This document shows, one piece after another, positions 783-15,699 of a stretch of DNA of 43,652 bases (its first letter is position 1; every line of letters begins with the position of its first letter). The notes under the pieces were generated by a model. That model had not been told where the DNA came from. It made no database searches and saw only the letters and a list, made by a program, of their open reading frames with translations. The DNA lies in UHGV virus genome UHGV-0122704; one strand, given 5' to 3'. Source of the stretch: a virus. Made by a program: the position numbers and the translations under genes.

Positions 783-1244
783 ATGTCTATGAACATCAAA
801 TATGACACAACATCCCCTAGCTGCTTGGTGTGGCTCAAGGGTAGGCGCGCCGGTGCTCCAGCGGGTACCCGCAACACTCGTGGCTACTGGGTGGTACAGG
901 TATCTGGTAGAAAGATACAGGCACACCGCCTCATCTGGGAACTACACAACGGGCCTATTCCAGACGGATATGTGGTGGACCACATCAACCAAAACCCCGG
1001 TGACAACAGATTAGAGAACCTGCGCTTAGCTACGGTTAGCGAAAACAACTGTAACGCACGCAGGTCTAAGCGGGAACATCCTAGGGGTGTATACTACACT
1101 GGCACCTGCTGGCGCGGGGAGTTCTGGAAGGACGGTAAGCGTTACATGAAGAAGCACAGCTCCTACGAAGTTATCTGCAAGTGGGTACTAGAGAAACGTC
1201 AAGAGCAACACAAGGCCTTCACCCCGGGGCAGGTGTATATCTGA
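783..1244 (+). CDS. HNH homing endonuclease (HNH_3-type with AP2-like C-terminal domain)
   Basis: ATG 783 preceded by GAGGA. Motif HRLIWELHNGPIPDGYVVDHINQNPGDNRLENLRLATVSENN is a textbook phage HNH_3 signature; C-terminal GVYYTGTCWRGEFWKDGKRY resembles an AP2 DNA-binding domain. Confidence 0.85.
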   Translation: MSMNIKYDTTSPSCLVWLKGRRAGAPAGTRNTRGYWVVQVSGRKIQAHRLIWELHNGPIPDGYVVDHINQNPGDNRLENLRLATVSENNCNARRSKREHPRGVYYTGTCWRGEFWKDGKRYMKKHSSYEVICKWVLEKRQEQHKAFTPGQVYI

Positions 1245-1605
1245 AACCAAAAATTATTATACTCGCCCTTGAGCCTCCCTCACCCTCAACGACGCCAATT
1301 GCCCCCATAGGGGGTGCCTAGCGCATAAAAGGAGGGGTGGGGTGGGTGCCTAGACGTCTAGACGGCCCTAGGGCGCTCTCTGAGGTGTGGAGCGCCACGG
1401 CAGCTAAGACCGTGGCTATAGCGGAAGCCTCAGAGGGCCTCAGTGGCTCCCTGCGCTGCGCTGGGGCTATCGCTAGTGCTGCCCCACGGCTTGGCCTGTG
1501 CGTGGCACTGAGTGGCTCCTGTGCGCTCTACGGGGCACTAGGGGCTATCCCTGTGCGCTCCCTGTGGGCCGTAGGGGTGCGCTCTGCCTTGCTTATTTTG
1601 CGCGT

Positions 1606-1662
1606 CCATAGTGGGCCCGCCTAGTGCCTGCATTGTGGGGCCATAGTGGGCCTGCCTAGTGC
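1606..1662 (+). repeat. 22-bp direct repeat pair CCATAGTGGGCC(C/T)GCCTAGTGC
   Basis: 1606..1627 and 1641..1662 are identical except for one base. Confidence 0.85.
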
Positions 1663-1858
1663 GCTGTAGTGCGTCACGGTGCTATCCCTAGTATGCACTA
1701 GGCTATCCACTGGCTATCCCTAGTGCTTTACATTGTGCCGATTATATGCTACGCTGCGCGCTCCCCACTAGGGCGCACATCCTCACCCAACACTATCCCG
1801 GCGCTATCTCTTTGCTATCCCCTTGCTCTTACTTTCATTCGAAAGCTGTCATGAAATG

Positions 1859-1875
1859 ATGTTACAGGAGTAGGA
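1859..1875 (+). promoter_or_regulatory. Copy A of conserved motif ATGTTACAGGAGTAGGA (17-mer core)
   Basis: Exact 17-mer also present at 22584..22600 and 34492..34508; lies in the non-coding terminal region about 190 bp upstream of HNH gene 2067. Confidence 0.6.
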
Positions 1876-2066
1876 GGGTTTTAGGGCACTATATACACAC
1901 TACTTACTACTACTCACTAGTAGTCACTAGTATCCCCTAGTAATGCCCTGTATGACTGACCGTAGGGAGGGAAGCATTACCTAGAATCTTGTAACCTCCG
2001 CTCCTATCCCTCCGGGATATCGTCGCTATGGTTACGCTACTAATCACTATGTAAGGAGATATTGTT

Positions 2067-2483
2067 GTGGCTAGAACATTTAAGATTGTGGTTGATAAGG
2101 AAGGTTATCCAGTGATTAATGGTGCTGGGCCTGAGTATGTGAATAAGCGAGGTAAGAGAGACTATAAGACTGTGGCGCTGCATAGGGCCGTGGTTATGGA
2201 TGCTCTGGGAATCACTAGCTACGGTTCTGGCTATCACGTACATCACTGTGACAGTAACCGCCTTAACTGTGACTTCAATAACCTGATACTGGTTAGCGCT
2301 GACACTCACCGGGCCATACACTTAGCACAGATTCAGGAAGGGAGATGCTTCACAAAGGATGAGTTATTGGCTAGTCCTGAGTACGATACTAACTGGCGAG
2401 AGTTCGACGTGACTTATGGGGACTACAATAGTTTACTGCACGCAGACCTTTGGGGGTCTGCTTACTCTTTTTGCTCCCAGTGA
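2067..2483 (+). CDS. HNH endonuclease
   Basis: GTG start 8 nt after AAGGAG (2053..2058). Motif YHVHHCDSNRLNCDFNNLILVSADTHRAIH fits an HNH nuclease core. Confidence 0.75.
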   Translation: MARTFKIVVDKEGYPVINGAGPEYVNKRGKRDYKTVALHRAVVMDALGITSYGSGYHVHHCDSNRLNCDFNNLILVSADTHRAIHLAQIQEGRCFTKDELLASPEYDTNWREFDVTYGDYNSLLHADLWGSAYSFCSQ

Positions 2484-2503
2484 TAAAAAGTTTAAAAAAG
2501 TAC

Positions 2504-2533
2504 TTGCTTCTTTTGGTTCAATAGGGCTATAGT
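2504..2533 (+). promoter_or_regulatory. Candidate sigma70 early promoter (-35 TTGCTT, 18-nt spacer, -10 TATAGT) with A-rich upstream tract
   Basis: TTGCTT 2504..2509, TATAGT 2528..2533, preceded by AAAAAGTTTAAAAAAG; sits in the 600-bp non-coding leader ahead of the early genes. Confidence 0.45.
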
Positions 2534-2635
2534 TCAATCACCGGGAGGCACTGAGGCGCTAACCGGGGCAGAGTCGGGAGATTCAGCCGGATTAAAGCTA
2601 GATAGTGTGAAGGGTTAGACACTCAATAAAAAGAG

Positions 2636-2664
2636 TTGACACCGCGAAGAACATAAGCTAGATT
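2636..2664 (+). promoter_or_regulatory. Candidate sigma70 early promoter (-35 TTGACA, 17-nt spacer, -10 TAGATT)
   Basis: Consensus -35 TTGACA 2636..2641; -10-like TAGATT 2659..2664. Confidence 0.5.
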
Positions 2665-2704
2665 GAATCCCGAAGTAAGCAGTAAGGCAGTAAGAAATAA
2701 ACGC

Positions 2705-2733
2705 TTGACAAGTTCTGATTCACTGAGTAACTT
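2705..2733 (+). promoter_or_regulatory. Candidate sigma70 early promoter (-35 TTGACA, weak -10 TAACTT)
   Basis: Consensus -35 TTGACA 2705..2710; the -10 is poor, so this is the weakest of the three tandem candidates. Confidence 0.35.
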
Positions 2734-3083
2734 AGATAGCGAACAAGGCAAGGATAACCACTCTAGGGCGCAAGGATGTGTGTCCCGTCGGATTAGGCTA
2801 GACGTTAAAAATGACCTCTTAAAGGTTTAGTAGTAAGCTGGTTTGCGGGGAGGCCCAGTACCTTGACTGGTACGTTGACGACCCACCCCTAGACAATCAG
2901 TTAAAGAGTAAACGTGCCGGACGTTATCACCGGGGTTCTGAGACAAACCACACTGTCGAGGCGAGAGCAGCTCGCTCCTCTGAATCGAGGGAACAAGGCG
3001 CGGAGTGTATCCCGCAAAGAGCATATAACATAGCGCAGCAGTAACAAGGTTGCGCTAGATTATGTTCTCTGAGAGGTAAGAGT

Positions 3084-3281
3084 ATGCGCAAATCAAAGCG
3101 TTTAGCATTACGGCGGAATATGCAATTATCACTGAATCCCACCGACGACGTGCCGCTTACTGTGAAGCCTAGCAAACAAGGGTTGAGCAGTGAGCACAGG
3201 GTGAGGGGAAAGCAAAAACAAAAGGGCAGTAGCAGGCAGCCATCTGGATGGCCTACTGTTAACTCCCAATTTGGTCGATAA
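3084..3281 (+). CDS. Hypothetical early protein, small and strongly basic (65 aa)
   Basis: ATG 3084 preceded by GAGAGG; first ORF after the early promoter cluster; Lys/Arg-rich. Confidence 0.5.
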   Translation: MRKSKRLALRRNMQLSLNPTDDVPLTVKPSKQGLSSEHRVRGKQKQKGSSRQPSGWPTVNSQFGR

Positions 3282-3287
3282 TTACAG

Positions 3288-3317
3288 CCTATAGCATCCT
3301 ACGGGGTGCTATGTGAA
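3288..3317 (+). promoter_or_regulatory. Conserved intergenic stem-loop motif, copy 1 (CCTATAGCATCCTACGGGGTGCTATGTGAA)
   Basis: 27/30 identical to 4004..4033. Stem ATAGCA/TGCTAT plus CC/GG around a 4-nt loop; no T-run follows. Confidence 0.6.
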
Positions 3318-3352
3318 GTAATTACCTAAACAACCAATCAAAGAGGTGCATT

Positions 3353-3928
3353 ATGACCCATTCAACTGGTAAAGTATTCAAGCTCACCGCTGCGGGCAGC
3401 ATTCGTAAAGCGCTGGGCGACGTAGTGGAAGCAAAGCGCAACATCACTATTAGCGCGCTCTTCCACGGCCTGATTAGCAGCAACGTTTCCTGGGCTATGG
3501 ATATGCAGCGCAGCGATGCCGCGGACTTCGATATGGTGCTGCGTACGCTGCTGCCTATCAAGTTCAACAAGGAGTCCGGCAAATACGAATTCAACGCGAA
3601 GAAGTGCTATGCGTCTGCTGAGAAGCTGGGCATCGAACTGGACACTATGCGTCTGGACTATAAACAAGCTGACAAGCAGGAGCGCGAAGTAATTGTAGCC
3701 AGCTTCTATAGCTCCTGTATGGCCCTGTACGCTGCCGAAGCGGAGCAGGTAAAGAATGACGCGCTGGATGCCGATGCAGTGCGCTTGCAAGCGCTGGGGC
3801 GCGTTAAAAACGCTATCAAGAAGGCAAAAGAGACTGGTGTAAGCGACGCTGACCTCGTGTATATGCTGGTATCGCAGGGCGTGGATGTACGCGCTGTACT
3901 GGACGCAACTTTGAAGGCGGCGGCATGA
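3353..3928 (+). CDS. Hypothetical early protein (191 aa) with host-optimal codon bias, probably abundantly expressed
   Basis: ATG 3353 preceded by AAGAGG. Strong preference for CTG/CGT/AAC/TTC/ATC codons like the capsid gene. No recognisable domain. Confidence 0.7.
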   Translation: MTHSTGKVFKLTAAGSIRKALGDVVEAKRNITISALFHGLISSNVSWAMDMQRSDAADFDMVLRTLLPIKFNKESGKYEFNAKKCYASAEKLGIELDTMRLDYKQADKQEREVIVASFYSSCMALYAAEAEQVKNDALDADAVRLQALGRVKNAIKKAKETGVSDADLVYMLVSQGVDVRAVLDATLKAAA

Positions 3929-3996
3929 GCGTAGAATTCATGGTTATCATAACGGCGGTGGTGCTGTTATTTGTAGTGGCGGGCGAATATCTCTAG
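3925..3996 (+). CDS. Possible small hydrophobic peptide (23 aa, MSVEFMVIITAVVLLFVVAGEYL)
   Basis: ATGA start/stop overlap with the upstream gene; single predicted TM helix. Too short to support strongly. Confidence 0.3.
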   Translation: MSVEFMVIITAVVLLFVVAGEYL

Positions 3997-4003
3997 TAGC
4001 AAG

Positions 4004-4033
4004 CCTATAGCGTCCTGCGGGGCGCTATGTGAA
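4004..4033 (+). promoter_or_regulatory. Conserved intergenic stem-loop motif, copy 2 (CCTATAGCGTCCTGCGGGGCGCTATGTGAA)
   Basis: Stem ATAGCG/CGCTAT carries a compensatory A-T to G-C change relative to copy 1; lies just upstream of gene 4046. Confidence 0.6.
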
Positions 4034-4045
4034 TGCAACTGGCGT

Positions 4046-4279
4046 ATGGGGTTTCATATGAAAGCAATACTGGTCTATCCGGGCCATGAACTCTGGCCCG
4101 TGTGGTGCAATCGGGTATACGCAGAATACAACTACACTGTGGTCATATTCTCTGACAAAGACACTAATCAGGAATCCCCTTTAGAATTTGTGGATACCTA
4201 CACCGAAATGGCTGCCCGCACTGTGCTGGACGCCGTGAATCTTGGCATTATCAACGACTGGAGACAACTTTATGGTTAA
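4046..4279 (+). CDS. Hypothetical early protein (77 aa; alternative start ATG 4058)
   Basis: ORF in the early gene array; weak RBS, start uncertain. Confidence 0.45.
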   Translation: MGFHMKAILVYPGHELWPVWCNRVYAEYNYTVVIFSDKDTNQESPLEFVDTYTEMAARTVLDAVNLGIINDWRQLYG

Positions 4280-4535
4280 TGTATTCAACATCATTGTGAC
4301 CAGCGCTATGCTGGTGCTGGGCAACGACATAAACAACCCAATCCCATACTGCACTGTGCAGTTGCAGCAACCGGCAACGCAGGAGCCGCAGCCGCGCCCT
4401 GAGTACGACCTATTTGAAGACCCCGAGGGTGGTTGCAAAGAGCTGGGCGCACGTATCCTTGCGGCGGTGCAGGAGCAGTACCAGGACGCTGCGGTAACGC
4501 TCACGGTGGATGGTAAGAGCAATAACGAAATTTGA
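4272..4535 (+). CDS. Hypothetical early protein (87 aa) with hydrophobic N-terminus
   Basis: ATG 4272 preceded by GGAGAC and overlapping the upstream stop; N-terminal VFNIIVTSAMLVLG could be a TM helix. Confidence 0.45.
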   Translation: MVNVFNIIVTSAMLVLGNDINNPIPYCTVQLQQPATQEPQPRPEYDLFEDPEGGCKELGARILAAVQEQYQDAAVTLTVDGKSNNEI

Positions 4536-4544
4536 GGTGGGGGC

Positions 4545-4724
4545 ATGCACGGAAAGAATCCTGAAACGCTGCTGATGCGTAAGCAGCAACCAACAATCGA
4601 CGGGCTGGCGCGGGAGTACAACGCGAAGGCAGCGCTGCGCCAGCACTATGAGAAACAAGCAAAGCGCCTGGGTATGACCCTGCGCGGCTACTGCTTCCGG
4701 TTTAATGTGCGGGGTGTAGTATGA
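4545..4724 (+). CDS. Hypothetical early protein (59 aa)
   Basis: ATG 4545 preceded by GAGGTGGGGG; ATGA overlap with the next gene suggests translational coupling. Confidence 0.45.
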   Translation: MHGKNPETLLMRKQQPTIDGLAREYNAKAALRQHYEKQAKRLGMTLRGYCFRFNVRGVV

Positions 4725-4939
4725 GCAAGCAGGACATTTATGACGTATATAAGCGCCCTAATGGGTTTCTTTACCGGGTACCTCTATTTAGTCCACTGCA
4801 CGCCCTCGCAGAATTCTATGCAGAGGAGACTAGACTGTGGTTGCCGTCCAGTCACACAGTTGGCGGGGTGGTAATGCTAAGTTGTAGCACCCTTGTGGCC
4901 CGCAACGTGGTATTCAAGGATAGCGCATGCTCACAGTAG
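4721..4939 (+). CDS. Hypothetical early protein (72 aa)
   Basis: ATG 4721 in an ATGA overlap with the upstream ORF. Confidence 0.45.
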   Translation: MSKQDIYDVYKRPNGFLYRVPLFSPLHALAEFYAEETRLWLPSSHTVGGVVMLSCSTLVARNVVFKDSACSQ

Positions 4940-5271
4940 ACGAAACAGCGCTGCTGTGCTGGCGTCTGCTGGAAACGCAGGGCAAGTGCGGTTGCACTTG
5001 GGAAACATTCAAAGAGGTTCCTAATGAACTCAAGCAAATCGTGCCAGTTGAGCGTCGATTACTCCGAGTTAGAAAAGAGGATATTGGCACTGTTCTCACA
5101 ACCTATCGAGAGTACACTGAGTCTGCCGCGCGGAAGCTGCAAGAGCACATTGCATTCGATGTGGTTGCAGCACTACGGCGGAATGGATACCGCGGAGCTT
5201 TTAAGCAATTTAGAGCCGCAGTCCGCGCCTATTATAAGCAGCAACAACTCTCCGCGTGGTACGCACGCTGA
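4927..5271 (+). CDS. Hypothetical early protein (114 aa)
   Basis: ATG 4927 preceded by AAGGA; basic, helix-rich sequence. Confidence 0.45.
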   Translation: MLTVDETALLCWRLLETQGKCGCTWETFKEVPNELKQIVPVERRLLRVRKEDIGTVLTTYREYTESAARKLQEHIAFDVVAALRRNGYRGAFKQFRAAVRAYYKQQQLSAWYAR

Positions 5272-5311
5272 ACTCTTAGTGCATGACGAAGTTCTATTAA
5301 CTCGGGAGCAA

Positions 5312-6994
5312 ATGAAAATGCAAGAAACTAACACAGCACCTATCGAATGGAAAGTAGTGTTACCGGAAGGTGCAAACGCACTGCCGATTAAAGAATCAAT
5401 GTATTCCAGCGGTGATTACTGGACCCCGTTCCAGGACTTGCAAATGCAAGGGGAGGACCATCCCCACACTGAGGGTCCGCTGCAGGTGCTTATGGGTCTC
5501 CGCACTGTCAGTGCGCACACTCCAGGCTTAGAGGTGACTATAGGCGGGGCACTGCACCCAGAGTATCGCGAATCAACGATGACGCTCGGCCCGTTGCAAA
5601 AGGTGGACCTGTACCGGTCCGGAACTTTCTGCGAACTCTTTGAACCGGTGCGAATCACCATAGACAGCAAGTTCTGGGAACGCCGCCGCGACTTCTATGA
5701 GGGCGAGGATGTAGTGGTTGAGCGCGTAGTTGCTTGCGTCGAAGAATTCACAGGTTACAAGGTGCACAAGCAGGCCGTGCAGTTATTTGAGCGCATCATG
5801 CTTGCACCAGAAGAGCAGCAGCGCCGCTTATACACTGGCTACGATTACGGCCGCCACACCCGCGATGGCAACTTAGCTGCGCTGCTCATGAAGTTGCACG
5901 GCTTCGTAGTGTCTAGATTCGCCGTGCCTTTGGGCTTTGGTTTCCGCAACGGCGAACCTATCGTGATGCTGGGGCAGCCGCGGATGCACAAGGACTTCGC
6001 AGCAGTTACTGAGTACCGCTGCGTAGAGATGCGCGTAGGTAAGTGGCTCGCTAACTACTACGGAAATGGTGTGGACTTCCGCGATGCTATCGAAGACCTC
6101 AAGGCTATGAACGTAGACCCTACAACGTACCTGTGCAAGACCGAGCAGGAATGGTACGACGCCTACGAGAATGGCCCGGGTAGCTGCATGAGCGGGTACT
6201 CATTTGAGCATAGCTCTGTGCGGACGTACGCTACCACCAGCCACGGGTTGCCGGATAATGGGCTGCGCCTGTTCATCCAGTACACCGGGGAGCTGTTCGG
6301 CGACGATTTCGAAGTGCAGGCACGGGCAATCGTTAACACAGAAACTAACGAGTACGTCCGCGCTTACGGCAACGCTGCGGATGCAATCCTGCGGGGGCAT
6401 GGGTACACCAAAAACATTGAATGTCTCGAAGGGGTAATGCTGGCGCGAATACCGCACCCAACATACAACGGCGCAGTGCTGATGCCATACCTAGATAGCA
6501 GCCAGTGCGGCGTAGATGAGTATGGGGATGATGCCTTTGTAATCCGTGATGCTTATGAGTACGAGGCACAAGACTCAGAAGGATACATCTACGTAGGCAC
6601 TGAGTCTGCTCGGTGCTGCTGCTGTGAATGTCGCTACTCTGTAGATGACATGCAGGAGACCGCAGATGGTGATATGGTCTGCGACGGCTGCGTAGAAGAA
6701 GGGGATTTTGTGTACGTAGTTGGGCGTGATGGTCTGCATAATCGCTGGAGCTGCACCTGGTCTGATTACCACGACGCCTATGTATACGACGAGGACATAG
6801 AGCGCTGCGAAGTAGAGGGTGTAGTGCACGACCAAGAGGAACTGGTGTTTGCACAGGACCGGCAAGTGCTTATTGAGCACGCAGAAGAACACCCAGTGCA
6901 CGGGTTAATTCTCACTGAGCATGCAGCTGATTGCTTGGGAGAGAAGTACCTGGGCAACGATGAAGATGAAGAAGAAGCAGAGGAGGCAGCTTAA
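5312..6994 (+). CDS. Large hypothetical early protein (~560 aa) with a Cys cluster and an acidic C-terminal tail
   Basis: Track ORF 5024..6994 trimmed to ATG 5312 (GGGAG RBS), which avoids overlapping 4927..5271. Contains CCCCECRYSVDD...CDGC and ends NDEDEEEAEEAA. No family recognised. Confidence 0.6.
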   Translation: MKMQETNTAPIEWKVVLPEGANALPIKESMYSSGDYWTPFQDLQMQGEDHPHTEGPLQVLMGLRTVSAHTPGLEVTIGGALHPEYRESTMTLGPLQKVDLYRSGTFCELFEPVRITIDSKFWERRRDFYEGEDVVVERVVACVEEFTGYKVHKQAVQLFERIMLAPEEQQRRLYTGYDYGRHTRDGNLAALLMKLHGFVVSRFAVPLGFGFRNGEPIVMLGQPRMHKDFAAVTEYRCVEMRVGKWLANYYGNGVDFRDAIEDLKAMNVDPTTYLCKTEQEWYDAYENGPGSCMSGYSFEHSSVRTYATTSHGLPDNGLRLFIQYTGELFGDDFEVQARAIVNTETNEYVRAYGNAADAILRGHGYTKNIECLEGVMLARIPHPTYNGAVLMPYLDSSQCGVDEYGDDAFVIRDAYEYEAQDSEGYIYVGTESARCCCCECRYSVDDMQETADGDMVCDGCVEEGDFVYVVGRDGLHNRWSCTWSDYHDAYVYDEDIERCEVEGVVHDQEELVFAQDRQVLIEHAEEHPVHGLILTEHAADCLGEKYLGNDEDEEEAEEAA

Positions 6995-8055
6995 TGTTCT
7001 TGAATCCGCACGGGATTGATATGCAGCTGCTCTTGCAGATACTGCAAACGCACCGGCCTAGCTGGGGTAGCACTAAGTGGTTCGAGCCGCTGCTTATGCA
7101 GTCGCTACAGGCGCTGGGTAGTGGTATGCACTACGTAAAGGACAAGCACGGGAACTACTTCGTGCTGGTGGGGGACTCAGAGCAAAGTGACGTAGCGTTT
7201 ACGTCTCATCTCGACACAGTGGCACGACCAACCAGCGCTGCGCCGGACGTCGGCTGCACTAACAAGGGCGTGCTGTTCGTAAAGAATCCGCAACAAGCTG
7301 ACTGCTTGGGCGCCGACTGCGGCGCCGGTATCTACCTGATGCTGGAGATGCTGCGGCGCGGCGTGCACGGACGCTACTGCTTCTTCGTGGATGAAGAGGT
7401 AGGCTGCGAGGGTAGCGCTGCATCGGTCAAGGATGACTCTGGATTTTGGACTGGGGTCAAGGCGATGATTAGCTTCGACCGCCGCGGCGACGGTATCATT
7501 ACGCATCAAAGGTATATGCGCTGCTGCTCTGACACCTTTGCCAAGACCCTAGCAGAGCGCCTGGGACGCACGGAGCAGCACTTGCAGAAGGGTGTTTATA
7601 CTGACTCGGCTGAGTTCGTTGGCATCATTCCTGAGTGCACCAACGTCGGTGTAGGGTACATGCACGAGCACACCCCGGATGAGGTGCTGGACCTGAACAT
7701 ACTGGGCCAGGTGCTTGAGCGGGTACTACAAGACGGCACGTTCTCGCACCTCCCTATTGAGCGGGACCCGGCAGTAGCAGAGCCAGACCTATGCCAGTGG
7801 CTCGCTGCATCGACGCTCAGTTTACGGCAGCCGTGGGATATGCCGCCGGACGAGGACCCGCAGTTACTGGCCGCGTTCCGGGAAGTATCGCAGCTTTCTA
7901 AACAACAACTGGTTAGCTGGGTACAGGAGAATCCAGAGAAGGCGGCGGAGTACATAATGGTGTTCTCCGATTACGGCTTTAAAGAAGAACTGATTGAACT
8001 AGGCACCCGAGTCGTAGAAGACTGGGGCGGATACGATAATATTGTGGAGGGTTGA
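6994..8055 (+). CDS. Putative Zn-metallopeptidase-like protein (M20/M28/M42-like ligand pattern)
   Basis: Ordered candidate metal ligands HLD (TSHLDTV), D (GADCGAG), EE (FVDEEVG), D (FDRRGDG), H (MHEHT) match the co-catalytic zinc exopeptidase pattern. Motif-level inference only. Confidence 0.5.
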   Translation: MFLNPHGIDMQLLLQILQTHRPSWGSTKWFEPLLMQSLQALGSGMHYVKDKHGNYFVLVGDSEQSDVAFTSHLDTVARPTSAAPDVGCTNKGVLFVKNPQQADCLGADCGAGIYLMLEMLRRGVHGRYCFFVDEEVGCEGSAASVKDDSGFWTGVKAMISFDRRGDGIITHQRYMRCCSDTFAKTLAERLGRTEQHLQKGVYTDSAEFVGIIPECTNVGVGYMHEHTPDEVLDLNILGQVLERVLQDGTFSHLPIERDPAVAEPDLCQWLAASTLSLRQPWDMPPDEDPQLLAAFREVSQLSKQQLVSWVQENPEKAAEYIMVFSDYGFKEELIELGTRVVEDWGGYDNIVEG

Positions 8056-8057
8056 TT

Positions 8058-9289: not shown

Positions 9290-9480
9290 GTATGGGTATC
9301 TGGGTTTTAATCATGGCGATTAATGGCAGTGCGGTTAGCGACACAGACTTCGCTGCGCTAACCACTCAAGAGTTCACAACGGGGGCCGCCTGCAACAAGG
9401 CGGCCAAGGCGTTCGAAGAGAAGTTTGACACATTCAGGGTGTATACCGCTAAAGCAATCTGTGTTCCTAAGGAGGTTTAA
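9286..9480 (+). CDS. Hypothetical protein (64 aa)
   Basis: ATGA overlap with the primase stop; fills the primase-helicase gap. Confidence 0.45.
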   Translation: MSMGIWVLIMAINGSAVSDTDFAALTTQEFTTGAACNKAAKAFEEKFDTFRVYTAKAICVPKEV

Positions 9481-10761
9481 TTGGACCTAATAGTAGTTAA
9501 GGCAATGTGCACGCAGAAGGTATGGAACCGACTGCGTGAACAGATACCCAAATCCATGCTAGCGCCGGACACAGCTAACCTACTAGACTGGGTGGGGTTG
9601 TACTGGAACACGTACCCGGAGCACCAGGAGGTTCAGTGGGATGCAATGCAGAGCATGCTAAACCTCCGGGCGGGGCACCTGTCCCGGGAAGAGCGGGTAA
9701 TCATGGACGAGCTTATGCGGGGAGTACAAGCCGTGCCACAGGATTCTGTGGTGGGGATTGTCCAGACCCTGAACGAGCTGGCCTACAGCGGGGAGGTAGC
9801 AGCGCTGACGCAGCGCTATCAAGACGGCGAGGAGATTGATTACCTGCTGGAAATGAAGCACCTACAGCGCAAGTACGGTGATGGCGCTGCGGTGCATGAT
9901 TCGCTGCTTGAATGGGAGAGCGGTAGTGTTGACGAGATACTTGCCGCGACTGATGAGAGCGGCGGTCTTAAACTGGGCGTGTTCGAGCAACTCGCTAGCA
10001 ACATCCGAGGTCTACGTGGCGGGGACTGCATCGCAGTGGCTGCTCCTGTGGACTCTGGTAAAACTAGCCTGCTTGCTGCTATTGCTGTGGACTTTGCTGA
10101 GCAGATGCAGCAGCAGCCGGAAGTATACGGGGACCGCCCGATTCTCTGGCTGGTTAACGAGGGTCCGGCGACGCGTACAGTGCCGAGGGTATATCAAGCG
10201 GCGCTGCACTGGACTCTGGCGGAGATTAAGGACCGGCACAGTAAGCAAGAGTTCGTGCCAGCCTACCTCAAGAAAGTAGGCAGGGCTGACCGGATTCGCG
10301 TTAAGGCTGCGCACTCCTTGACGATGGCGCAGATATCCACGCTCATGGAGGAGATGCGCCCCGCGGTAATCATCATTGATATGGTGGCGAATATCCGTGG
10401 CGGTACTATGGAGAGTGAGCACCAGAACCTAGAGGCGAAATGGCAGGAGCTGCGCATCCTTGGGTGCGAGAACGACTGCGCTATCGTAGGGACTATGCAG
10501 CTTTCACTCGAAGGTTACAACATGTTGTTCCCGCCGCTCACCGCTATGAAGCAGAGCAAGATTGGTGTACAGGGTGCCTTGGACTTGGCGATTATGATGG
10601 GATGCTTGGACAGGAACGAGCAGCCGCACATGCAAAACGTCCGTGGTATCAGTACTCCGAAGAACAAGATGGCACTGTCTGGTAAAGAGTCGCTACTGCA
10701 ATTCGAGGTGGGATTCGAGCCGGGTCGTTGCCGCTTTGACGAGGGCCAGATTAACCGGTGA
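9481..10761 (+). CDS. Replicative DNA helicase (DnaB-like / T7 gp4 helicase-domain-like)
   Basis: Walker A AAPVDSGKTSLL and Walker B-like AVIIIDMV. TTG start at 9481 sits 5 nt after a strong AAGGAGG; an in-frame ATG at 9506 is the alternative. Confidence 0.85.
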   Translation: MDLIVVKAMCTQKVWNRLREQIPKSMLAPDTANLLDWVGLYWNTYPEHQEVQWDAMQSMLNLRAGHLSREERVIMDELMRGVQAVPQDSVVGIVQTLNELAYSGEVAALTQRYQDGEEIDYLLEMKHLQRKYGDGAAVHDSLLEWESGSVDEILAATDESGGLKLGVFEQLASNIRGLRGGDCIAVAAPVDSGKTSLLAAIAVDFAEQMQQQPEVYGDRPILWLVNEGPATRTVPRVYQAALHWTLAEIKDRHSKQEFVPAYLKKVGRADRIRVKAAHSLTMAQISTLMEEMRPAVIIIDMVANIRGGTMESEHQNLEAKWQELRILGCENDCAIVGTMQLSLEGYNMLFPPLTAMKQSKIGVQGALDLAIMMGCLDRNEQPHMQNVRGISTPKNKMALSGKESLLQFEVGFEPGRCRFDEGQINR

Positions 10762-10767
10762 CTTCCC

Positions 10768-10790
10768 TAGCGCCTTCTATGAGGGCGCTA
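10768..10790 (+). promoter_or_regulatory. Stem-loop (TAGCGCC / GGCGCTA, 9-nt loop) related to the early hairpin motif
   Basis: Shares GGCGCTATGT with copy 2; lies between the helicase and the small ORF before the DNA polymerase. Confidence 0.45.
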
Positions 10791-10813
10791 TGTAGGTACA
10801 CTAGGAGGCTACT

Positions 10814-10969
10814 ATGCTTAAACCGTCAGACATTAACTACCTCGACGAAGAGGTAATCAAGGCGTACGCTGCGTCTGCAGGTACTTTCCGTAAACGATTC
10901 GCGCTGGACAGCAGCCAGCTGATTGTGCATCTAGCTATCAATAAAGCTCGGAGGGCTAAGTGGAAATGA
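10814..10969 (+). CDS. Hypothetical small protein (51 aa)
   Basis: ATG 10814 preceded by a near-perfect AGGAGG; its stop overlaps the DNA polymerase start in ATGA. Confidence 0.5.
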   Translation: MLKPSDINYLDEEVIKAYAASAGTFRKRFALDSSQLIVHLAINKARRAKWK

Positions 10970-13377
10970 CAACCAGCATAATGCACCTTGACCTGGAGAC
11001 GGAGAACCATGAATATTACGGCTCTAAAGCAAGCCCATACTGCCCTGACAACTATGTTGTTGAGTCCGCATGGCGTATCGACACGACACAGGCTGACGGT
11101 ACTACCACTGTTGGCGCGACTCAATCGGTGCGCTTCAATTCAAGAGCTGATTTCTTGGCGGGAAACAGTGCAGCAGAAGGCTGCCGGTGGTTTCATATCC
11201 CCGAGGATTGCTGGCTTATTGTTGCGCACAACGCAGCCTATGAGATTTCTTGGTTTCTCACGTACCAGCGGCAGCAGTTTGAGGCCTTCCTCAAGCGCGG
11301 TGGCAGGGTGTTCTGCACAATGCACGGGGAATACATCGCCTCGGACTTTCAGAGCATGTATCCGTCTCTGGACGAGACGGCTCCTAAGTACGGTGGTACG
11401 CACAAAGTAGACGGGGTTAAGATTCTATGGGAGCAGGGTGTGTTAACCTCCCAGATCGACCCGATACTGCTGCATGACTACCTGGTTAACGGGGACATCC
11501 CGAACACGGCCCTGTGCTTCTACGGCCAGTGCGCTACGTTCGCCCAGCGCAATCAGATGCAGTACGTGTGGGAACGTATGGATGCCTTGCTAGCTTGGGC
11601 GTACTGCGAGTGGTTCGGCCTGTTCGTGAATATGCCAATTGCACGCAAGAACCAGGAGGAGCAGGAGCAGCGCATCCGTGAGATTAAGCAGGAACTGCAG
11701 CAGTACATCCCGAAGGACTTGCCGGAGACGCTGGACTTCAATTTCGGGTCGGACTTTCATATGTCTGCACTGGTGTACGGCGGGCCTATAAAGTACCGCA
11801 AGAAGGTCCCCTATGACCCTCCGCAGTACGTCAAGGCCGACTACTATAAGTACGAGGACGAAGATGGTGCGCACACCTATATACCTGTACACGACACGCA
11901 CATGCAAGAACTTCAAACGGAAGGCGGATGGTGGCGTGTAGTGACATATCGTGCGGGTAAGAACAAGGGGCTCCCTAAAGTATTCCGCCTCGATACCGAG
12001 GAAGAGAAACTTAAATGGGAAGACGACCTTTACTTCTGCCCGGGCCTAGTGAACATCCAGGAGCTTCCGGAAGTTATCCGGGAGAAGTACGCAGAGCGCG
12101 GGGAGTTCCGACAGGCGCGCACCCTGCAGGATGGCACCCCTGTGTATAGCACCAGCACTGATGCAATGGAGGCGCTGGCTCGCCAAGGGTTCGAGTTCTG
12201 TAAGTTGGTGAACGAACTGGCGGCGCTGGAGAAGGATACCGGCACTTACTATTTGCGAGAAGTACTGGACGCAGGAGGTAATGTAAAAGAGCGGAAGGGG
12301 ATGCTGCAGTATGTAATCCCGGAGCGTCCCGATGGTTCCGGCATCATTCACCACCGGCTGAATACTTGCGCCACCGTAACCGGGCGCTTGAGTAGCTCTA
12401 ACCCGAACCTGCAGAACCTACCCCGCCCGGATGAGGATGGCGACGGTGTGGCTAAATCCAAGGTGAAGCAGGTGTTCACCAGTAGATTCGGGGACAACGG
12501 ACGTATCACTGAGGTTGACTACTCGGCACTGGAAGTGGTTATGTCCTGTGTACACACGGGTGACAAGAAACTGCTGGGACTGCTGCAGAGTGGTACGGAT
12601 ATGCACTGTTACCGCCTAGCTTTCCGCGAGGGATTACCGTATGAAGAAGTATATGAGCGCTGCCACAACAAGAAGCACGAGCTGCATCCGCTTTGGAAGG
12701 CAATGCGTACAGGTATTAAGGCTCCTAGCTTTGCAGCCCAGTATGGCGCTACGGCTAAGGGGATTGCGTTTGCTACTGGATGTACGGTGGAATTTGCACA
12801 GGCTTTCTTGGACAACGAGGCTGCGCTGTTCCCGCAAACAATTGGCTTCCGCGCTGTTGTCAAGGAAGAGGTAGAACGTACCGGTGCGGAGGGGCGCATG
12901 TACCGGGAGCAGGCTGACGACGGCAGCTACCGAATCTACCGCATTGGGACGTGGACCAGCCCAGCCGGTGCCCGCTACAGTTTCCGTCAGAAAGAGCAGT
13001 GGAAAGAGGTTGTGCCTGGGCAGCGTAAGCAGAAGGTAATGGACTACAAGGAAACAGAGATGGCTAACTACTGGTGCCAGGGGGAAGCATTCTTCCTGAT
13101 GGCGGTAGCCGCCGGTATGGTTCTGCGTGCACTCCTGGCCCGTGACTGGTTCGACAATCAGGTGTGCCTGATTACGAACGTGCACGATGCGTTGTATCTG
13201 GACAGCGCCAACCCGGAGGTTGGACGTGAGGCGAGCCTGCTGGTTAAGCAGTGCATGGAGGATGCACCTAAGCGTATTCACCAGCTCTGGCCTAACTACG
13301 GCATCATTGGTGAGGTCCCGTTCCCAGCAGAGGCTGAGATGGGTACGAGTATGTACAGTAAGGAGAAGGTAGAATGA
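10966..13377 (+). CDS. DNA polymerase (family A, T7 gp5-like)
   Basis: N-terminal 3'-5' exo motif MHLDLETEN; polymerase motifs RLNTCATVTGRLSSSNPNLQNLP, K...FAAQYGA and VHDALYLD. ATG 10966 preferred over the track GTG 10960. Confidence 0.95.
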   Translation: MTTSIMHLDLETENHEYYGSKASPYCPDNYVVESAWRIDTTQADGTTTVGATQSVRFNSRADFLAGNSAAEGCRWFHIPEDCWLIVAHNAAYEISWFLTYQRQQFEAFLKRGGRVFCTMHGEYIASDFQSMYPSLDETAPKYGGTHKVDGVKILWEQGVLTSQIDPILLHDYLVNGDIPNTALCFYGQCATFAQRNQMQYVWERMDALLAWAYCEWFGLFVNMPIARKNQEEQEQRIREIKQELQQYIPKDLPETLDFNFGSDFHMSALVYGGPIKYRKKVPYDPPQYVKADYYKYEDEDGAHTYIPVHDTHMQELQTEGGWWRVVTYRAGKNKGLPKVFRLDTEEEKLKWEDDLYFCPGLVNIQELPEVIREKYAERGEFRQARTLQDGTPVYSTSTDAMEALARQGFEFCKLVNELAALEKDTGTYYLREVLDAGGNVKERKGMLQYVIPERPDGSGIIHHRLNTCATVTGRLSSSNPNLQNLPRPDEDGDGVAKSKVKQVFTSRFGDNGRITEVDYSALEVVMSCVHTGDKKLLGLLQSGTDMHCYRLAFREGLPYEEVYERCHNKKHELHPLWKAMRTGIKAPSFAAQYGATAKGIAFATGCTVEFAQAFLDNEAALFPQTIGFRAVVKEEVERTGAEGRMYREQADDGSYRIYRIGTWTSPAGARYSFRQKEQWKEVVPGQRKQKVMDYKETEMANYWCQGEAFFLMAVAAGMVLRALLARDWFDNQVCLITNVHDALYLDSANPEVGREASLLVKQCMEDAPKRIHQLWPNYGIIGEVPFPAEAEMGTSMYSKEKVE

Positions 13378-13595
13378 GTATAAAGTCTGGCAGTGTTGTG
13401 GAGTTGATGGACCTGGGGCCTGAGCCGATAGACCCGCGGTATGCAGCATACTTCGCCCCGGGTACGAGGCACACGGTCATGTTCTTCGACCCGGTTACTG
13501 GGGAGATAGAACTAAGTTATCCTGGACTAGTAGTAAGTAGACCGGGGGATGGTGTTACCTTCTTCCCGGGGGAGTACAAGCTTATCGTGGAATAG
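13374..13595 (+). CDS. Hypothetical protein (73 aa)
   Basis: ATGA overlap with the DNA polymerase stop. Confidence 0.5.
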   Translation: MSIKSGSVVELMDLGPEPIDPRYAAYFAPGTRHTVMFFDPVTGEIELSYPGLVVSRPGDGVTFFPGEYKLIVE

Positions 13596-13717
13596 TGATA
13601 GGTGGACCCTTGGGTGGTGTAGGGGGTTAGGGTAGCATGGAAATACACTGGGGTCAACTAAATAATTAAATAAAATTATTTGTTGACTCTAGCTTGATTC
13701 TGTGATTCACAGAGAAT

Positions 13718-13736
13718 TAATGTGATACGAGTAGGA
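13718..13736 (+). promoter_or_regulatory. Degenerate copy D of the conserved 19-bp motif (TAATGTgatacGAGTAGGA)
   Basis: Shares the 5' block TAATGT and 3' block GAGTAGGA at the same spacing as the three exact copies; about 20 nt upstream of HNH gene 13757 in an AT-rich intergenic region that also holds a TTGACT -35-like hexamer (13683..13688). Confidence 0.45.
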
Positions 13737-13756
13737 ACAACACAAGAGGATACCGA

Positions 13757-14191
13757 ATGTCGATGTGTATTGACCACGGGTATAACAAATGCCTTAACAA
13801 GAACGGATACCGCCGGGCATGGTATAAGCCGACCAGGCGATTGGAGCTGCTGCATCGGGTGGTGTATGCTGAGCATAACGGGCTGGATATAAGGGCGCTG
13901 GCTGGCCTGTCTGTTAGACATACCTGCGATAACCCCAGGTGCATTAACCCTAAGCACTTAGTATTGGGAACGCATATGGATAATATGCGGGACCGTGCAG
14001 AGCGCGGAAGGAACCCAGATGTGCGTGGGGATAGGAACCCAAAAGCGCAGTTAACTTGGGATGCTGTGCAGGATATCAGGGATAACTATATCCCATACAA
14101 GAAAGGTATGCGGCAACACTTTGCTAATAAGTACGGTGTAGGTGTACATGTAATTAGTGACGTAATAAGTAACAGGAGCTGGAATGCCTAA
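13757..14191 (+). CDS. HNH homing endonuclease (HNH_3-type)
   Basis: LHRVVYAEHNG...HTCDNPRCINPKHLVLGTHMDNMRD; RBS AAGAGGA. Confidence 0.85.
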   Translation: MSMCIDHGYNKCLNKNGYRRAWYKPTRRLELLHRVVYAEHNGLDIRALAGLSVRHTCDNPRCINPKHLVLGTHMDNMRDRAERGRNPDVRGDRNPKAQLTWDAVQDIRDNYIPYKKGMRQHFANKYGVGVHVISDVISNRSWNA

Positions 14192-15173
14192 GTTAAACAC
14201 AATAAAGCTATTCACCAAAGAGCAACACATAGATATCTTGAGCAAGCACAGCTCTAACGTGGATGCTGCTGCCGCCTATAATAATCTGGCGGGACTGGAC
14301 GAGCCAGTGGTGTATCGACAGATGGTGAAGTACTGGCGCAGCATATTCCTAGACCACGCTGGGAGCAAGGGTAAGGCAATATCCCACATGAAGGAGGCAC
14401 TAAAGCTCATACAGCCCAGTCCCACTGATGACATCGGCAAAACCTTCGTGCCGGAAGTGTGCCACCGTATTCTCGTAGTTGGGGATTTGCATGCCCCCTA
14501 TACGCACGTAGATGCTATGGCCTTCTTAGAATCTGTGCGAGACGCCTACTGTCCGGACATGGTTGTACAGGTAGGCGACGAGACGGACGGCCACGCTATA
14601 TCATTCCACGAAAGTAACCCGAACCTAGATAGCGCCGGGGTGGAGCTGGAGAAAGCCAAGCTCGTACTGGAGGAGCTGCATGAACTATTCCCGAACCTAC
14701 TGGTTTGCGATTCCAATCACGGCAGTCTGGTTTACCGCAGGGCGAAAGCTCACGGGCTACCAGTGCAATTCATCAAGAAGTACCGAGATATACTTTTCCC
14801 TGAGCATGGTGCCCCGGCGTGGTCTTGGGCTGACGCATGGGTACTCAATACCCCACTTGGCCCGGTTAGATTCCAGCATCAAGTGTCGGGTGACTTCATG
14901 CTCAACGCTAGCCACGAAAGAACCAGCCTTGTCCTTGGTCACGAACATGGTCGCTTTGAGGTGCAATATGCAGCTAGCTCAACAGCTTTGTACTTTGGTG
15001 CGTATGCTGGGTGTCTGATTGACCGTAAGAGCATGGCCTTTGCTTACGGCAGACTCACCCGCAAGAAACCAATCCTGGGTGTGATGGTAATCACCGAGGG
15101 CTGTCCGCAGTTAATCCCGATGCTGCTTGATGATTCCGGAAGGTGGTGTGCAAGAGATAAAACCAAAGACTGA
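14184..15173 (+). CDS. Calcineurin-like metallophosphoesterase (possible nuclease/phosphatase)
   Basis: Ordered motifs GDLHA (D-x-H), GDETDGH (GD-x-x-D), SNHG (N-H) and GHEHG (GH-x-H). Confidence 0.75.
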   Translation: MPKLNTIKLFTKEQHIDILSKHSSNVDAAAAYNNLAGLDEPVVYRQMVKYWRSIFLDHAGSKGKAISHMKEALKLIQPSPTDDIGKTFVPEVCHRILVVGDLHAPYTHVDAMAFLESVRDAYCPDMVVQVGDETDGHAISFHESNPNLDSAGVELEKAKLVLEELHELFPNLLVCDSNHGSLVYRRAKAHGLPVQFIKKYRDILFPEHGAPAWSWADAWVLNTPLGPVRFQHQVSGDFMLNASHERTSLVLGHEHGRFEVQYAASSTALYFGAYAGCLIDRKSMAFAYGRLTRKKPILGVMVITEGCPQLIPMLLDDSGRWCARDKTKD

Positions 15174-15195
15174 TACAGGAAAGAGATTCCGCGGT

Positions 15196-15699
15196 ATGGT
15201 TGTTTATACCTGGGACTGCCCTTACTGTGGCGAGGAGTTTGAGGCGATACGCACTAAGCTATTCAATACCAGTAAGCGCGGCGGCCTTGGTCACTGCGGA
15301 TGTCAAACTAAACTCAGGCAAAGTGAGAAGAATACTGGACGAACTCCGCCTAATAAGCTGGACGACTTAACAGTATCGGCGAATAAGGTATGGGCCTTTA
15401 GCACTAAGTTAGGTAGGAGTATTACTAAGGAAGACGCCAAGGCCTTAGTAAGCGCAGATTGTTATTACTGCGGCGCGCCACCCAGTACCTACCGGGAACT
15501 CGGCAGTGGGAGATGGGCGCGTAAATCCACAGTACCCACTAACGGGATAGACCGGAAGGATTCACGCATTGGGTACCATTTAGACAACTGTGTGCCATGC
15601 TGCCCTACCTGCAACTATATGAAGTCTGACATGCACCACGATGACTTCGTAGGACTGTGCAAACGCATAGCCCTGCATCTGCACGTAAATATCATTTAA
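15196..15699 (+). CDS. Cys-rich HNH-like endonuclease (start uncertain; track start 15127)
   Basis: CPYCGEEF, CGC, CYYCG and YHLDNCVPCCPTCNYMKSDMHHDDF suggest a zinc-binding HNH fold. ATG 15196 chosen to avoid a 45-nt overlap. Confidence 0.5.
   Translation: MVVYTWDCPYCGEEFEAIRTKLFNTSKRGGLGHCGCQTKLRQSEKNTGRTPPNKLDDLTVSANKVWAFSTKLGRSITKEDAKALVSADCYYCGAPPSTYRELGSGRWARKSTVPTNGIDRKDSRIGYHLDNCVPCCPTCNYMKSDMHHDDFVGLCKRIALHLHVNII

What the first reader, a model, noticed from the sequence alone, without database searches (positions are those of the whole stretch)
783..15699. Unusually high load of HNH-type endonuclease genes
There are three clear HNH_3 homing endonucleases (783..1244, 2067..2483, 13757..14191), one Cys-rich HNH-like protein (15196..15699) and endonuclease VII. 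Two flank the putative genome terminus. Free-standing HNH genes are mobile and their insertion sites often mark recombination hot-spots, so they are useful for tracing mosaicism among relatives.
Basis: partly seen in the sequence, partly recalled or inferred. Interest (0 to 1): 0.4.

Follow-up and report, generated by a model that had tools for sequence, protein, structure and literature searches.

The report
Four mobile HNH endonuclease gene cassettes
This Klebsiella podophage (Drulisvirus) genome carries four small, intact "selfish" nuclease genes that are present or absent as neat cassettes among otherwise very similar relatives; this is real, but it is ordinary for this phage group and already documented.

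Summary
ORFs 783-1244, 2067-2483 and 13757-14191 pass Pfam HNH_3. ORF 15196-15699 is a Cys-rich nuclease of the HNH (beta-beta-alpha-metal) superfamily, closest to restriction enzyme PacI. A true endonuclease VII lies at 19070-19513, outside the stated range.

The window is a circularly permuted Drulisvirus (KP34-like) genome. Each of the four genes is a discrete 417-523 bp cassette. Each is present in only 3-10% of about 250 GenBank relatives, with an empty site or a different HNH gene at the same slot in the others. No GenBank phage carries more than two of the four.

The HNH_3 genes keep their catalytic residues and are under purifying selection (dN/dS 0.05-0.11). The window is almost identical to one IMG/VR contig, and two of the four divergent patches between them carry HNH differences. 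One is the Cys cassette plus about 140 bp of downstream flank.

Free-standing homing-endonuclease genes are the best reading; nuclease activity and homing were not tested.

"Unusually high load" is not supported. Relatives carry 0-6 such genes (median 2; 30% have 4 or more) across about 20 slots, and the published relative BUCT86 has five. Endonuclease VII is a core gene, not mobile. Known biology, low interest.

The parts
783..1244 (+). HNH1: free-standing HNH_3 endonuclease gene, 153 aa, with motifs DH...N...N and a weak AP2-like C-terminal tail. It is the last gene before the right terminal repeat. The net insertion relative to empty sites is 494 bp (770-1263).
   Evidence: Pfam HNH_3 78.1 bits; PHROG 99; AP2 only E 0.79. 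Empty sites join window 769 to 1226. Orthologue present in 27 GenBank records, 82-99% nt identity, usually annotated HNH or homing endonuclease. dN/dS 0.11.
730..769 (.). Upstream copy of an imperfect ~38-bp direct repeat that brackets HNH1. The second copy is at 1226-1263, inside the 3' end of the ORF. Empty sites have a single copy.
   Evidence: The two BLAST segments overlap by 38 bp in locus coordinates in L002, L030, L039, L041 and L042. Alignment A2.
1278..1551 (.). Equivalent of the direct terminal repeat (physical genome end), present once in this circularly permuted assembly.
   Evidence: The annotated terminal repeat of AttikonH2 (1-214) maps to 1278-1342 and 1431-1544. KpV71 and KpV41 record position 1 maps to window 1278.
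2067..2483 (+). HNH2: free-standing HNH_3 endonuclease gene, 138 aa from a GTG preceded by AAGGAG, with motifs HH...N...H. It sits in the repeat-rich non-coding early region. The cassette is about 2041-2457 and replaces 98-210 bp of variable sequence. A terminator-like hairpin at 2442-2461 spans the right boundary.
   Evidence: Pfam HNH_3 31.1 bits. Boundaries. Sixteen GenBank records carry it, against 245 with the flanks. A second allele at 52% aa identity occupies the same slot in L021 and L047. dN/dS 0.10. Hairpin.
13757..14191 (+). HNH3: free-standing HNH_3 / His-Me-finger endonuclease gene, 144 aa. The cassette 13749-14201 replaces 26 bp of the empty site (the spacer after the ribosome-binding site, the TTG start and the first 6 codons of the phosphoesterase gene). 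It uses the old AAGAGG ribosome-binding site and supplies a new AGGAG and ATG for the phosphoesterase, overlapping its own stop (ATGCCTAA).
   Evidence: Pfam HNH_3 37.3 bits plus zf-His_Me_endon 28.5 bits. Junction sequences. Seventeen GenBank records carry it, against 247 with the flanks. dN/dS 0.05.
14184..15173 (+). Metallophosphoesterase gene lying between two cassettes. Its 5' 300 bp is a distinct allele linked to HNH3. Its last 8 codons and stop codon are supplied by the left end of the Cys cassette.
   Evidence: Pfam Metallophos. Downstream-flank identity is 1.00 and 0.83 in the two HNH3+ loci, against a maximum of 0.72 in 50 HNH3- loci. C-terminal tails compared.
15196..15699 (+). Cys-rich PacI-like HNH-superfamily nuclease gene, 167 aa. 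It has an N-terminal zinc ribbon (C8, C11, C34, C36). Its C-terminal motif is C89xxC92 ... D119-R120 ... Y127 ... N131 ... C135-C136xxC139-N140..K143. The cassette 15147-15669 (523 bp) replaces 18 bp of the empty site, and the ORF ends in conserved intergenic sequence.
   Evidence: PHROG 1035. PacI 3LDY: phmmer E 0.015, profile E 1.3e-7, Foldseek E 3.5e-5. Invariant residues in a 44-sequence alignment. AlphaFold pLDDT 85.5. Junctions. Eight GenBank records carry it, against 263 with the flanks.
19070..19513 (+). Endonuclease VII-family gene. It is a core gene (presumed junction-resolving enzyme) and not part of the mobile set. It lies outside the finding's range.
   Evidence: PF02945 45.1 bits; PHROG 423. 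Present in 55 of 55 loci covering the site and in 228 GenBank records.

Best explanation
The window is a complete, circularly permuted genome of a KP34-like Klebsiella podophage (Drulisvirus). It carries four independent free-standing homing-endonuclease genes. Three are HNH_3 / His-Me-finger nucleases. One is a PacI-like, cysteine-rich HNH variant in which the usual general-base histidine is replaced (DR...Y...N).

Each gene is a self-contained cassette of about 0.4-0.5 kb in an intergenic slot. The coding-region cassettes are built so that neighbouring genes keep working. HNH3 takes over the phosphoesterase's ribosome-binding site and supplies a new one. The Cys cassette supplies a new 3' end for the phosphoesterase.

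The proposed mechanism is inferred from the well-studied T4 and T-even free-standing endonucleases and was not tested here. During co-infection with a relative that lacks the cassette, the nuclease would cut the cassette-less allele near the slot. Recombinational repair from the cassette-bearing genome would then copy the cassette together with a tract of flanking sequence. The cassette-bearing genome would be protected because the insertion, or a linked flanking allele, destroys the target.

The result is a genus-wide patchwork: about 20 slots, at least 48 sequence clusters of HNH genes, and 0-6 per genome. The endonuclease VII gene at 19070-19513 is an ordinary core DNA-processing gene.

Shown here: domain identity, intact motifs, purifying selection, exact cassette boundaries, presence/absence, alternative occupants of slots, independent assortment, and one cassette-plus-flank patch in a near-clonal pair.

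Inferred: nuclease activity, target sites, and super-Mendelian inheritance.
For: - **Domains.** Pfam HNH_3 above threshold for three ORFs. PADLOC 'HEase' models hit all three. The Cys protein is related to PacI by sequence, profile and fold, with all zinc and active-site positions invariant in 44 homologues.
- **Sporadic distribution.** Orthologues occur in 27, 16, 17 and 8 GenBank phage records, against 209-263 with the flanks. No record has more than two of the four.
- **Clean cassettes with defined junctions**.
- **Shared slots.** The same slots hold unrelated HNH genes in other relatives. For example, the phosphoesterase|15721 slot has a 169-176 aa HNH_3 gene in 11 loci and the Cys type in 2. 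In total there are about 20 slots and 48 clusters.
- **Functional proteins.** dN/dS is 0.05-0.11, and orthologues have the same length.
- **Near-clonal comparison.** The window matches L011 at no more than 1 mismatch per 100 bp over most of 1546-23400. It differs at 15105-15815, which is the Cys cassette plus about 140 bp downstream and is identical to L024. It also differs at 8700-13000, where L011 has an extra HNH gene at the primase|helicase slot.
- **Flank linkage.** HNH3 is perfectly linked to a distinct 5' allele of the downstream gene.
- **Literature.** Closely related Drulisvirus phages differ by homing endonucleases (PMC7013548). BUCT86 has five (PMC9119126).
Against: - No cleavage, target site or biased inheritance was or could be tested.
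- Orthologues at the same slot are old (dS 0.5-1.3) and co-diverge with their flanks. Much of the pattern could therefore reflect long residence plus ordinary homologous recombination and occasional loss, rather than frequent active homing.
- Only two of the four window-versus-L011 patches involve an HNH difference. Slots are so dense that co-localisation with breakpoints is not statistically testable.
- HNH2 lies in a hypervariable non-coding region, where the 'empty' state is a replacement rather than a clean deletion.
- The three HNH_3 proteins have no relative of solved structure detectable by sequence.
Confidence: 0.8

Rival explanations
1. Accessory nucleases kept because they benefit the phage, for example by excluding co-infecting competitors, degrading host or rival DNA, or stimulating recombination. 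On this view they are shuffled by ordinary homologous recombination between co-infecting Drulisviruses and do not drive their own spread by homing.
For: Strong purifying selection (dN/dS 0.05-0.11) and deep divergence of orthologues at the same slot (dS 0.5-1.3) indicate long-term maintenance. The genus is highly mosaic even where no HNH gene is involved, as in patches 7000-7700 and 17200-18200 against L011. The PADLOC defence library lists homing-endonuclease models, and these hit HNH1-3.
Against: Each gene is absent from at least 90% of relatives. Different, unrelated HNH genes occupy the same slots. The cassettes segregate independently. This is the signature of selfish elements rather than of a useful function. 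Competitor exclusion by cutting rival genomes is mechanistically the same act as homing, so the two readings overlap.
Confidence: 0.12
2. HNH1 and HNH2, which sit next to the genome terminus, are packaging cofactors like the terminase-associated HNH proteins of HK97-like cos phages.
For: HNH1 ends 33 bp before the terminal repeat, and HNH2 is the first sizeable ORF after it. A ~38-bp element just upstream of the repeat is duplicated around HNH1.
Against: Relatives with the same terminal repeat and terminase lack them: HNH1 is in 27 and HNH2 in 16 of more than 200 records. The terminase genes are about 5 kb away, at 38416-40574. Both proteins are HNH_3 proteins. From general knowledge, T7-like phages with direct terminal repeats do not need an HNH cofactor.
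Confidence: 0.03
3. The genes are inactive relics of past invasions that are on their way to being lost.
For: Homing-endonuclease genes are expected to decay once fixed (general knowledge). No activity data exist.
Against: The ORFs are full length and the same length as their orthologues. The catalytic His/Asn residues, or D-Y-N in the Cys protein, and all zinc-binding cysteines are intact. dN/dS is about 0.1. No truncated HNH fragments occur in the window.
Confidence: 0.05

Closest known systems
Free-standing HNH homing endonuclease genes of T4-like phages (mob genes) and the I-HmuI / HNH_3 family
   Same: Small intergenic ORFs with a His-Me-finger HNH_3 domain. Sporadic presence among close relatives. 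Insertion that preserves expression of neighbouring genes. Linkage with flanking alleles. Density is similar: 4 genes in 43.7 kb, 4.2% of the genome.
   Different: The host is a T7-like podophage (Autographiviridae, Slopekvirinae). None of these proteins has been characterised. No sequence-detectable relative has a solved structure.
Annotated HNH / homing endonuclease genes of other Drulisvirus phages (NTUH-K2044-K1-1 ORF35, KpV71, VKV295, BUCT86, VLC2 and others)
   Same: Direct orthologues at the same slots. HNH1 is 92% identical to NTUH-K2044-K1-1 ORF35 and, as there, follows the K1 lyase gene. HNH2 is 95% identical to VKV295. HNH3 is 100% identical to RCIP0044. Differences in homing endonucleases between close relatives are already reported (PMC7013548).
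   Different: The particular combination of four is not found in any of 50,697 GenBank phage records.
Restriction endonuclease PacI (PDB 3LDY), an HNH / beta-beta-alpha-metal enzyme with Cys4 zinc sites and tyrosine as general base
   Same: The Cys-rich protein shares CxxC...G(I/V)DRxD...GY...N...CxxCN..K. It is the best sequence, profile and fold match. It lacks the canonical first histidine and keeps the Asp, Tyr and Asn positions. The chemistry of PacI is taken from PMC4081073.
   Different: It is a phage-borne mobile cassette with no methylase partner. It has an extra N-terminal zinc ribbon. Identity is only about 22% and TM-score 0.40-0.46. Activity and specificity are unknown.
T4 endonuclease VII (PF02945) junction-resolving enzymes
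   Same: ORF 19070-19513 matches the family above threshold and is conserved in all relatives, as expected for a DNA-debranching enzyme.
   Different: It is not mobile. The Cys-rich protein is labelled 'endonuclease VII' in PHROGs and GenBank, but it does not match PF02945.
Terminase-associated HNH proteins of HK97-like cos phages
   Same: An HNH-superfamily nuclease encoded near a genome end.
   Different: Not next to the terminase genes, not conserved, a different HNH subfamily, and a genome type with direct terminal repeats.

Membership tests
Pfam HNH_3 (PF13392) His-Me-finger endonucleases | Whole-protein score above the curated gathering threshold (24.8 bits) | tested here: met
   78.1, 31.1 and 37.3 bits for 783-1244, 2067-2483 and 13757-14191. 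The Cys-rich ORF has no HNH_3 hit.
Pfam HNH_3 (PF13392) His-Me-finger endonucleases | Catalytic His (general base) and metal-binding Asn/His retained | tested here: met
   Read from the sequences within the matched stretches. HNH1: VVDH...NRLEN...SENN. HNH2: HVHH...NRLN...DTHRAIH. HNH3: VRH...CINPKH...HMDN.
Free-standing homing endonuclease gene | Sporadic presence/absence at a fixed locus among close relatives | tested here: met
   Orthologues in 27, 16, 17 and 8 records, against 209-263 records with the flanks. Independent assortment.
Free-standing homing endonuclease gene | Discrete cassette between genes (not inside an intron or intein), with neighbouring genes intact | tested here: met
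   Junctions at 769|1226, 2040|2458, 13748|14202 and 15146|15670. Ribosome-binding site and terminal codons of the phosphoesterase are re-supplied by the cassettes. Rfam finds no intron in the window.
Free-standing homing endonuclease gene | Co-conversion of flanking markers with the cassette | tested here: inconclusive
   The Cys cassette arrives with about 140 bp of downstream flank in an otherwise L011-identical background. HNH3 is linked to a distinct downstream allele. The same patterns can arise from ordinary recombination.
Free-standing homing endonuclease gene | Site-specific cleavage of the cassette-less allele and super-Mendelian inheritance | not testable with these tools
   Requires enzyme assays and phage crosses.
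PacI-like HNH (beta-beta-alpha-metal) nucleases | Sequence, profile and fold similarity, with zinc-binding cysteines and the D...Y...N active-site positions conserved | tested here: met
   phmmer E 0.015; profile E 1.3e-7; Foldseek E 3.5e-5, probability 1.00. C89, C92, D119, R120, Y127, N131, C135, C136, C139, N140 and K143 are invariant.
PacI-like HNH (beta-beta-alpha-metal) nucleases | Endonuclease activity with tyrosine as general base | not testable with these tools
   Chemistry is known for PacI only (PMC4081073).
T4 endonuclease VII family (PF02945) | Pfam score above threshold (23.6 bits) | tested here: met
   ORF 19070-19513 scores 45.1 bits. Not met for the Cys-rich ORF, which GenBank and PHROG label 'endonuclease VII'.
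Terminase-associated packaging HNH (HK97 gp74 type) | Encoded next to the terminase genes and conserved across relatives that share the packaging system | tested here: not met
   Terminase genes are at 38416-40574. HNH1 and HNH2 are absent from about 90% of relatives.

The most novel reading that the evidence does not exclude
The Cys-rich cassette (15196-15699) may represent a family not covered by Pfam. At least 195 clusters were found in metagenomes, and almost none has a Pfam domain. Its members would be PacI-type beta-beta-alpha-metal nucleases that use tyrosine rather than histidine as the general base and that act as free-standing homing endonucleases in phages. That would link a rare-cutting restriction enzyme directly to a phage homing-endonuclease lineage. 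It would also mean that the common database label 'endonuclease VII' for these proteins is wrong.
Probability: 0.4. Interest if true: 0.35.

Novelty: already known. Interest (0 to 1): 0.15.

Why it matters
The practical value is modest.

- The four cassettes, and the roughly 20 slots mapped here, are convenient markers for tracing recombination among therapeutic Klebsiella phages.
- They explain much of the small-scale gene-content difference between near-identical Drulisvirus isolates.
- Annotators should not count endonuclease VII as mobile, and should not label the PacI-like protein 'endonuclease VII'.
- Nothing here changes current understanding of homing endonucleases.

Tried and rejected
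- Sequence searches of HNH1-3 against the PDB and NCBIfam gave nothing.
- I hypothesised that the Cys ORF re-uses the original stop codon and C-terminal codons of the phosphoesterase after an in-frame insertion. The empty-site sequences rejected this: the phosphoesterase stops before the shared intergenic sequence.
- I looked for decayed HNH fragments in the window's empty slots. The only matches were short overlaps of relatives' ORFs with flanking genes.
- I asked whether the divergent patches against the near-identical contig are enriched at HNH slots. This is not testable, because slots occur about every 1.1 kb.
- The original PacI structure paper is not held in the library, so the chemistry is cited from a review.
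- The AP2 DNA-binding domain in HNH1 is only a sub-threshold hint (E 0.79).

Full report
**What the window is.** Megablast of window 1-16000 finds 269 phage records, 234 of them Klebsiella phages. The best matches have 90-94% identity over 80-88% of the query. The relatives include NTUH-K2044-K1-1, classified as Autographiviridae; Slopekvirinae; Drulisvirus.

All genes are on the + strand. They run in the KP34-like order: early region, peptidase, primase, helicase, DNA polymerase (10960-13377), phosphoesterase, exonuclease, endonuclease VII, RNA polymerase, structural genes, terminase, lysis genes, tail fibre.

Window 111-686 is the C-terminus of a K1-lyase tail fibre (PF24146; PHROG 18512 positions 462-651 of 651). 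The missing N-terminal part fits the last ~1.27 kb of the window. The window is therefore a circular permutation of a whole genome.

The annotated direct terminal repeat of AttikonH2 and position 1 of KpV71 and KpV41 map to window 1278-~1551.

**Checking the observation.** Three ORFs pass Pfam HNH_3:

| ORF | Name | Bits (cutoff 24.8) |
|---|---|---|
| 783-1244 | HNH1 | 78.1 |
| 2067-2483 | HNH2 | 31.1 |
| 13757-14191 | HNH3 | 37.3, plus zf-His_Me_endon |

All three keep the catalytic His and Asn positions.

The Cys-rich ORF 15196-15699 has no Pfam family. It belongs to PHROG 1035, matches PacI weakly by phmmer (E 0.015), and has 195 homologue clusters, almost none with a Pfam domain. A 44-sequence alignment shows the following residues invariant or nearly so: C8, C11, C34, C36, C89, C92, D119, R120, Y127, N131, C135, C136, C139, N140 and K143. 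The family profile hits PacI at E 1.3e-7 and an HNH nicking enzyme at 0.014. An AlphaFold model (pLDDT 85.5) has PacI as its only significant Foldseek hit (E 3.5e-5).

PacI is an HNH / beta-beta-alpha-metal enzyme with Cys4 zinc sites. Its metal is held by Asp and Asn, and tyrosine replaces the general-base histidine (PMC4081073). The aligned D, Y and N are the invariant residues here. 'Cys-rich HNH-like' is therefore right.

Endonuclease VII is at 19070-19513 (PF02945, 45.1 bits), outside the stated range. An HMM built from all HNH_3-type ORFs of the relatives finds no other copy in the window. No HNH remnants are present.

**Presence/absence.** Megablast with flanks included, then with each gene alone, gives:

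| Gene | Records with the gene | Records with the flanks |
|---|---|---|
| HNH1 | 27 | 209 |
| HNH2 | 16 | 245 |
| HNH3 | 17 | 247 |
| Cys | 8 | 263 |
| Endonuclease VII | 228 | not measured |

Endonuclease VII is also present in every one of 55 IMG/VR loci that cover its site.

A query made of the four cassettes joined together finds 65 records with at least one. Three records have two (RCIP0044, and KpV71 deposited twice). None has three or four.

**Anatomy of the cassettes.** I fetched 115 IMG/VR loci around the DNA polymerase and an internal virion protein and compared filled and empty sites.

- **HNH3.** Window 13749-14201 replaces 26 bp. The empty site reads AAGAG|AGGCAACC TTG GCT..., which is the phosphoesterase ribosome-binding site and TTG start. 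In the window the same AAGAGG now precedes the HNH3 ATG. The 3' end of HNH3 carries AGGAG and a new phosphoesterase ATG that overlaps the HNH3 stop.
- **Cys.** Window 15147-15669 replaces 18 bp. The cassette supplies the last 8 codons and stop of the phosphoesterase. The Cys ORF runs into the conserved intergenic sequence upstream of gene 15721.
- **HNH1.** The net insertion is 494 bp after position 769. The last ~38 bp of the cassette are a diverged copy of the 38 bp before the insertion point.
- **HNH2.** About 2041-2457, in the repeat-rich non-coding early region, replacing 98-210 bp of variable sequence.

**The genus-wide picture.** Mapping the flanks of every HNH-type ORF in the relatives onto the window gives about 20 distinct slots between 769 and 22586. 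Examples are directly upstream of the DNA polymerase (18 loci), primase|helicase (12 loci), directly upstream of endonuclease VII (10 loci), and the phosphoesterase|15721 slot. The last holds an unrelated 169-176 aa HNH_3 gene in 11 loci and the Cys type in 2.

The 154 ORFs fall into 48 clusters at 60% identity.

In 37 near-complete relatives (at least 40 kb, at least 85% covered) the counts are:

| HNH-type genes per genome | 0 | 1 | 2 | 3 | 4 | 5 | 6 |
|---|---|---|---|---|---|---|---|
| Relatives | 7 | 6 | 7 | 6 | 7 | 3 | 1 |

The median is 2, and 30% have 4 or more. BUCT86 has five annotated HNH or homing-endonuclease ORFs (PMC9119126). VLC1 and VLC2 were reported to differ by a homing endonuclease (PMC7013548). 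The window's four genes (1,818 bp, 4.2% of the genome) put it in the upper third, not at an extreme.

**Are they functional and mobile?** Against diverged orthologues, dN/dS is 0.11 (HNH1), 0.10 (HNH2) and 0.05 (HNH3), with dS 0.5-1.3. The proteins are therefore maintained by selection, and the slots have been occupied for a long time.

The window is nearly identical to IMG/VR contig 3300045988_012371 (L011) over most of 1546-23400. It differs in four patches:

- **7000-7700.** No HNH difference.
- **8700-13000.** L011 has a 145-aa HNH gene at the primase|helicase slot. The window has a 64-aa ORF there.
- **About 15105-15815.** This is the Cys cassette plus about 140 bp downstream. The window is identical here to contig 3300045988_005987 (L024).
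- **17200-18200.** No HNH difference.

HNH3 is perfectly associated with a distinctive allele of the first 300 bp of the phosphoesterase gene. Identity is 1.00 and 0.83 in the two HNH3+ loci, against a maximum of 0.72 in 50 HNH3- loci. There is no such association upstream.

These patterns are what homing with co-conversion, or linkage to a cleavage-resistant allele, would produce.

**Verdict.** The mobility and mosaicism interpretation is supported at the level of comparative genomics. The 'unusually high' claim and the inclusion of endonuclease VII are not supported.

Orthologues of all four genes are already in GenBank. Many HNH1-3 orthologues are annotated as HNH or homing endonucleases, and Cys orthologues are mostly labelled 'endonuclease VII'. 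Variation in homing endonucleases among Drulisvirus phages is published.

The only mildly new points are the PacI-type nature of the Cys-rich cassette, the slot map, and the fact that this four-cassette combination is absent from GenBank phages.

Noticed in passing
[not shown]
   Followed up: partly
L042 11694-11902; also L039, L041, L043, L046 (equivalent to window ~12736): Several relatives have their DNA polymerase gene interrupted after codon 592 by 230-640 bp. In L042 the insert is a group I intron (Rfam RF00028, 70.6 bits). The window's polymerase gene has no intron. GenBank relatives annotated with two 'DNA polymerase' CDSs probably reflect this.
   Followed up: partly
window 730-769 and 1226-1263: An imperfect ~38-bp direct repeat brackets HNH1, and empty sites have one copy. 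The element sits just upstream of the terminal repeat. It might be a functional signal that must stay next to the genome end, or a trace of the insertion event.
   Followed up: partly
L048 17055-17909: A single 284-aa ORF in one relative matches both the HNH_3 and the endonuclease VII HMMs. It is either a fusion or a read-through of an HNH gene inserted directly upstream of endonuclease VII.
   Followed up: no
window 19070-19513 and relatives: The core endonuclease VII gene exists in two allele classes among relatives (93% aa identity or more to the window, versus 53-69%). The slot directly upstream of it is occupied by an HNH gene in 10 loci.
   Followed up: no
window 9286-9480: The primase|helicase slot holds a 64-aa ORF (PHROG 3766, unknown function) in the window. 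A 145-aa HNH gene occupies it in 12 relatives, including the near-identical contig L011. The two are alternative cassettes at one slot.
   Followed up: partly
window 1546-23400 vs L011 (IMGVR_UViG_3300045988_012371): The window is almost clonal with this 32.7-kb metagenomic contig, apart from four recombinant patches. Many of the related contigs come from the same IMG dataset (3300045988). This suggests a co-circulating, recombining Drulisvirus population.
   Followed up: partly
window 1-686 and 42382-43652: The window starts and ends inside the K1-capsule lyase tail-fibre gene (circular permutation of the assembly). As in phage NTUH-K2044-K1-1, the K1 lyase is followed directly by the HNH1 orthologue.
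   Followed up: partly
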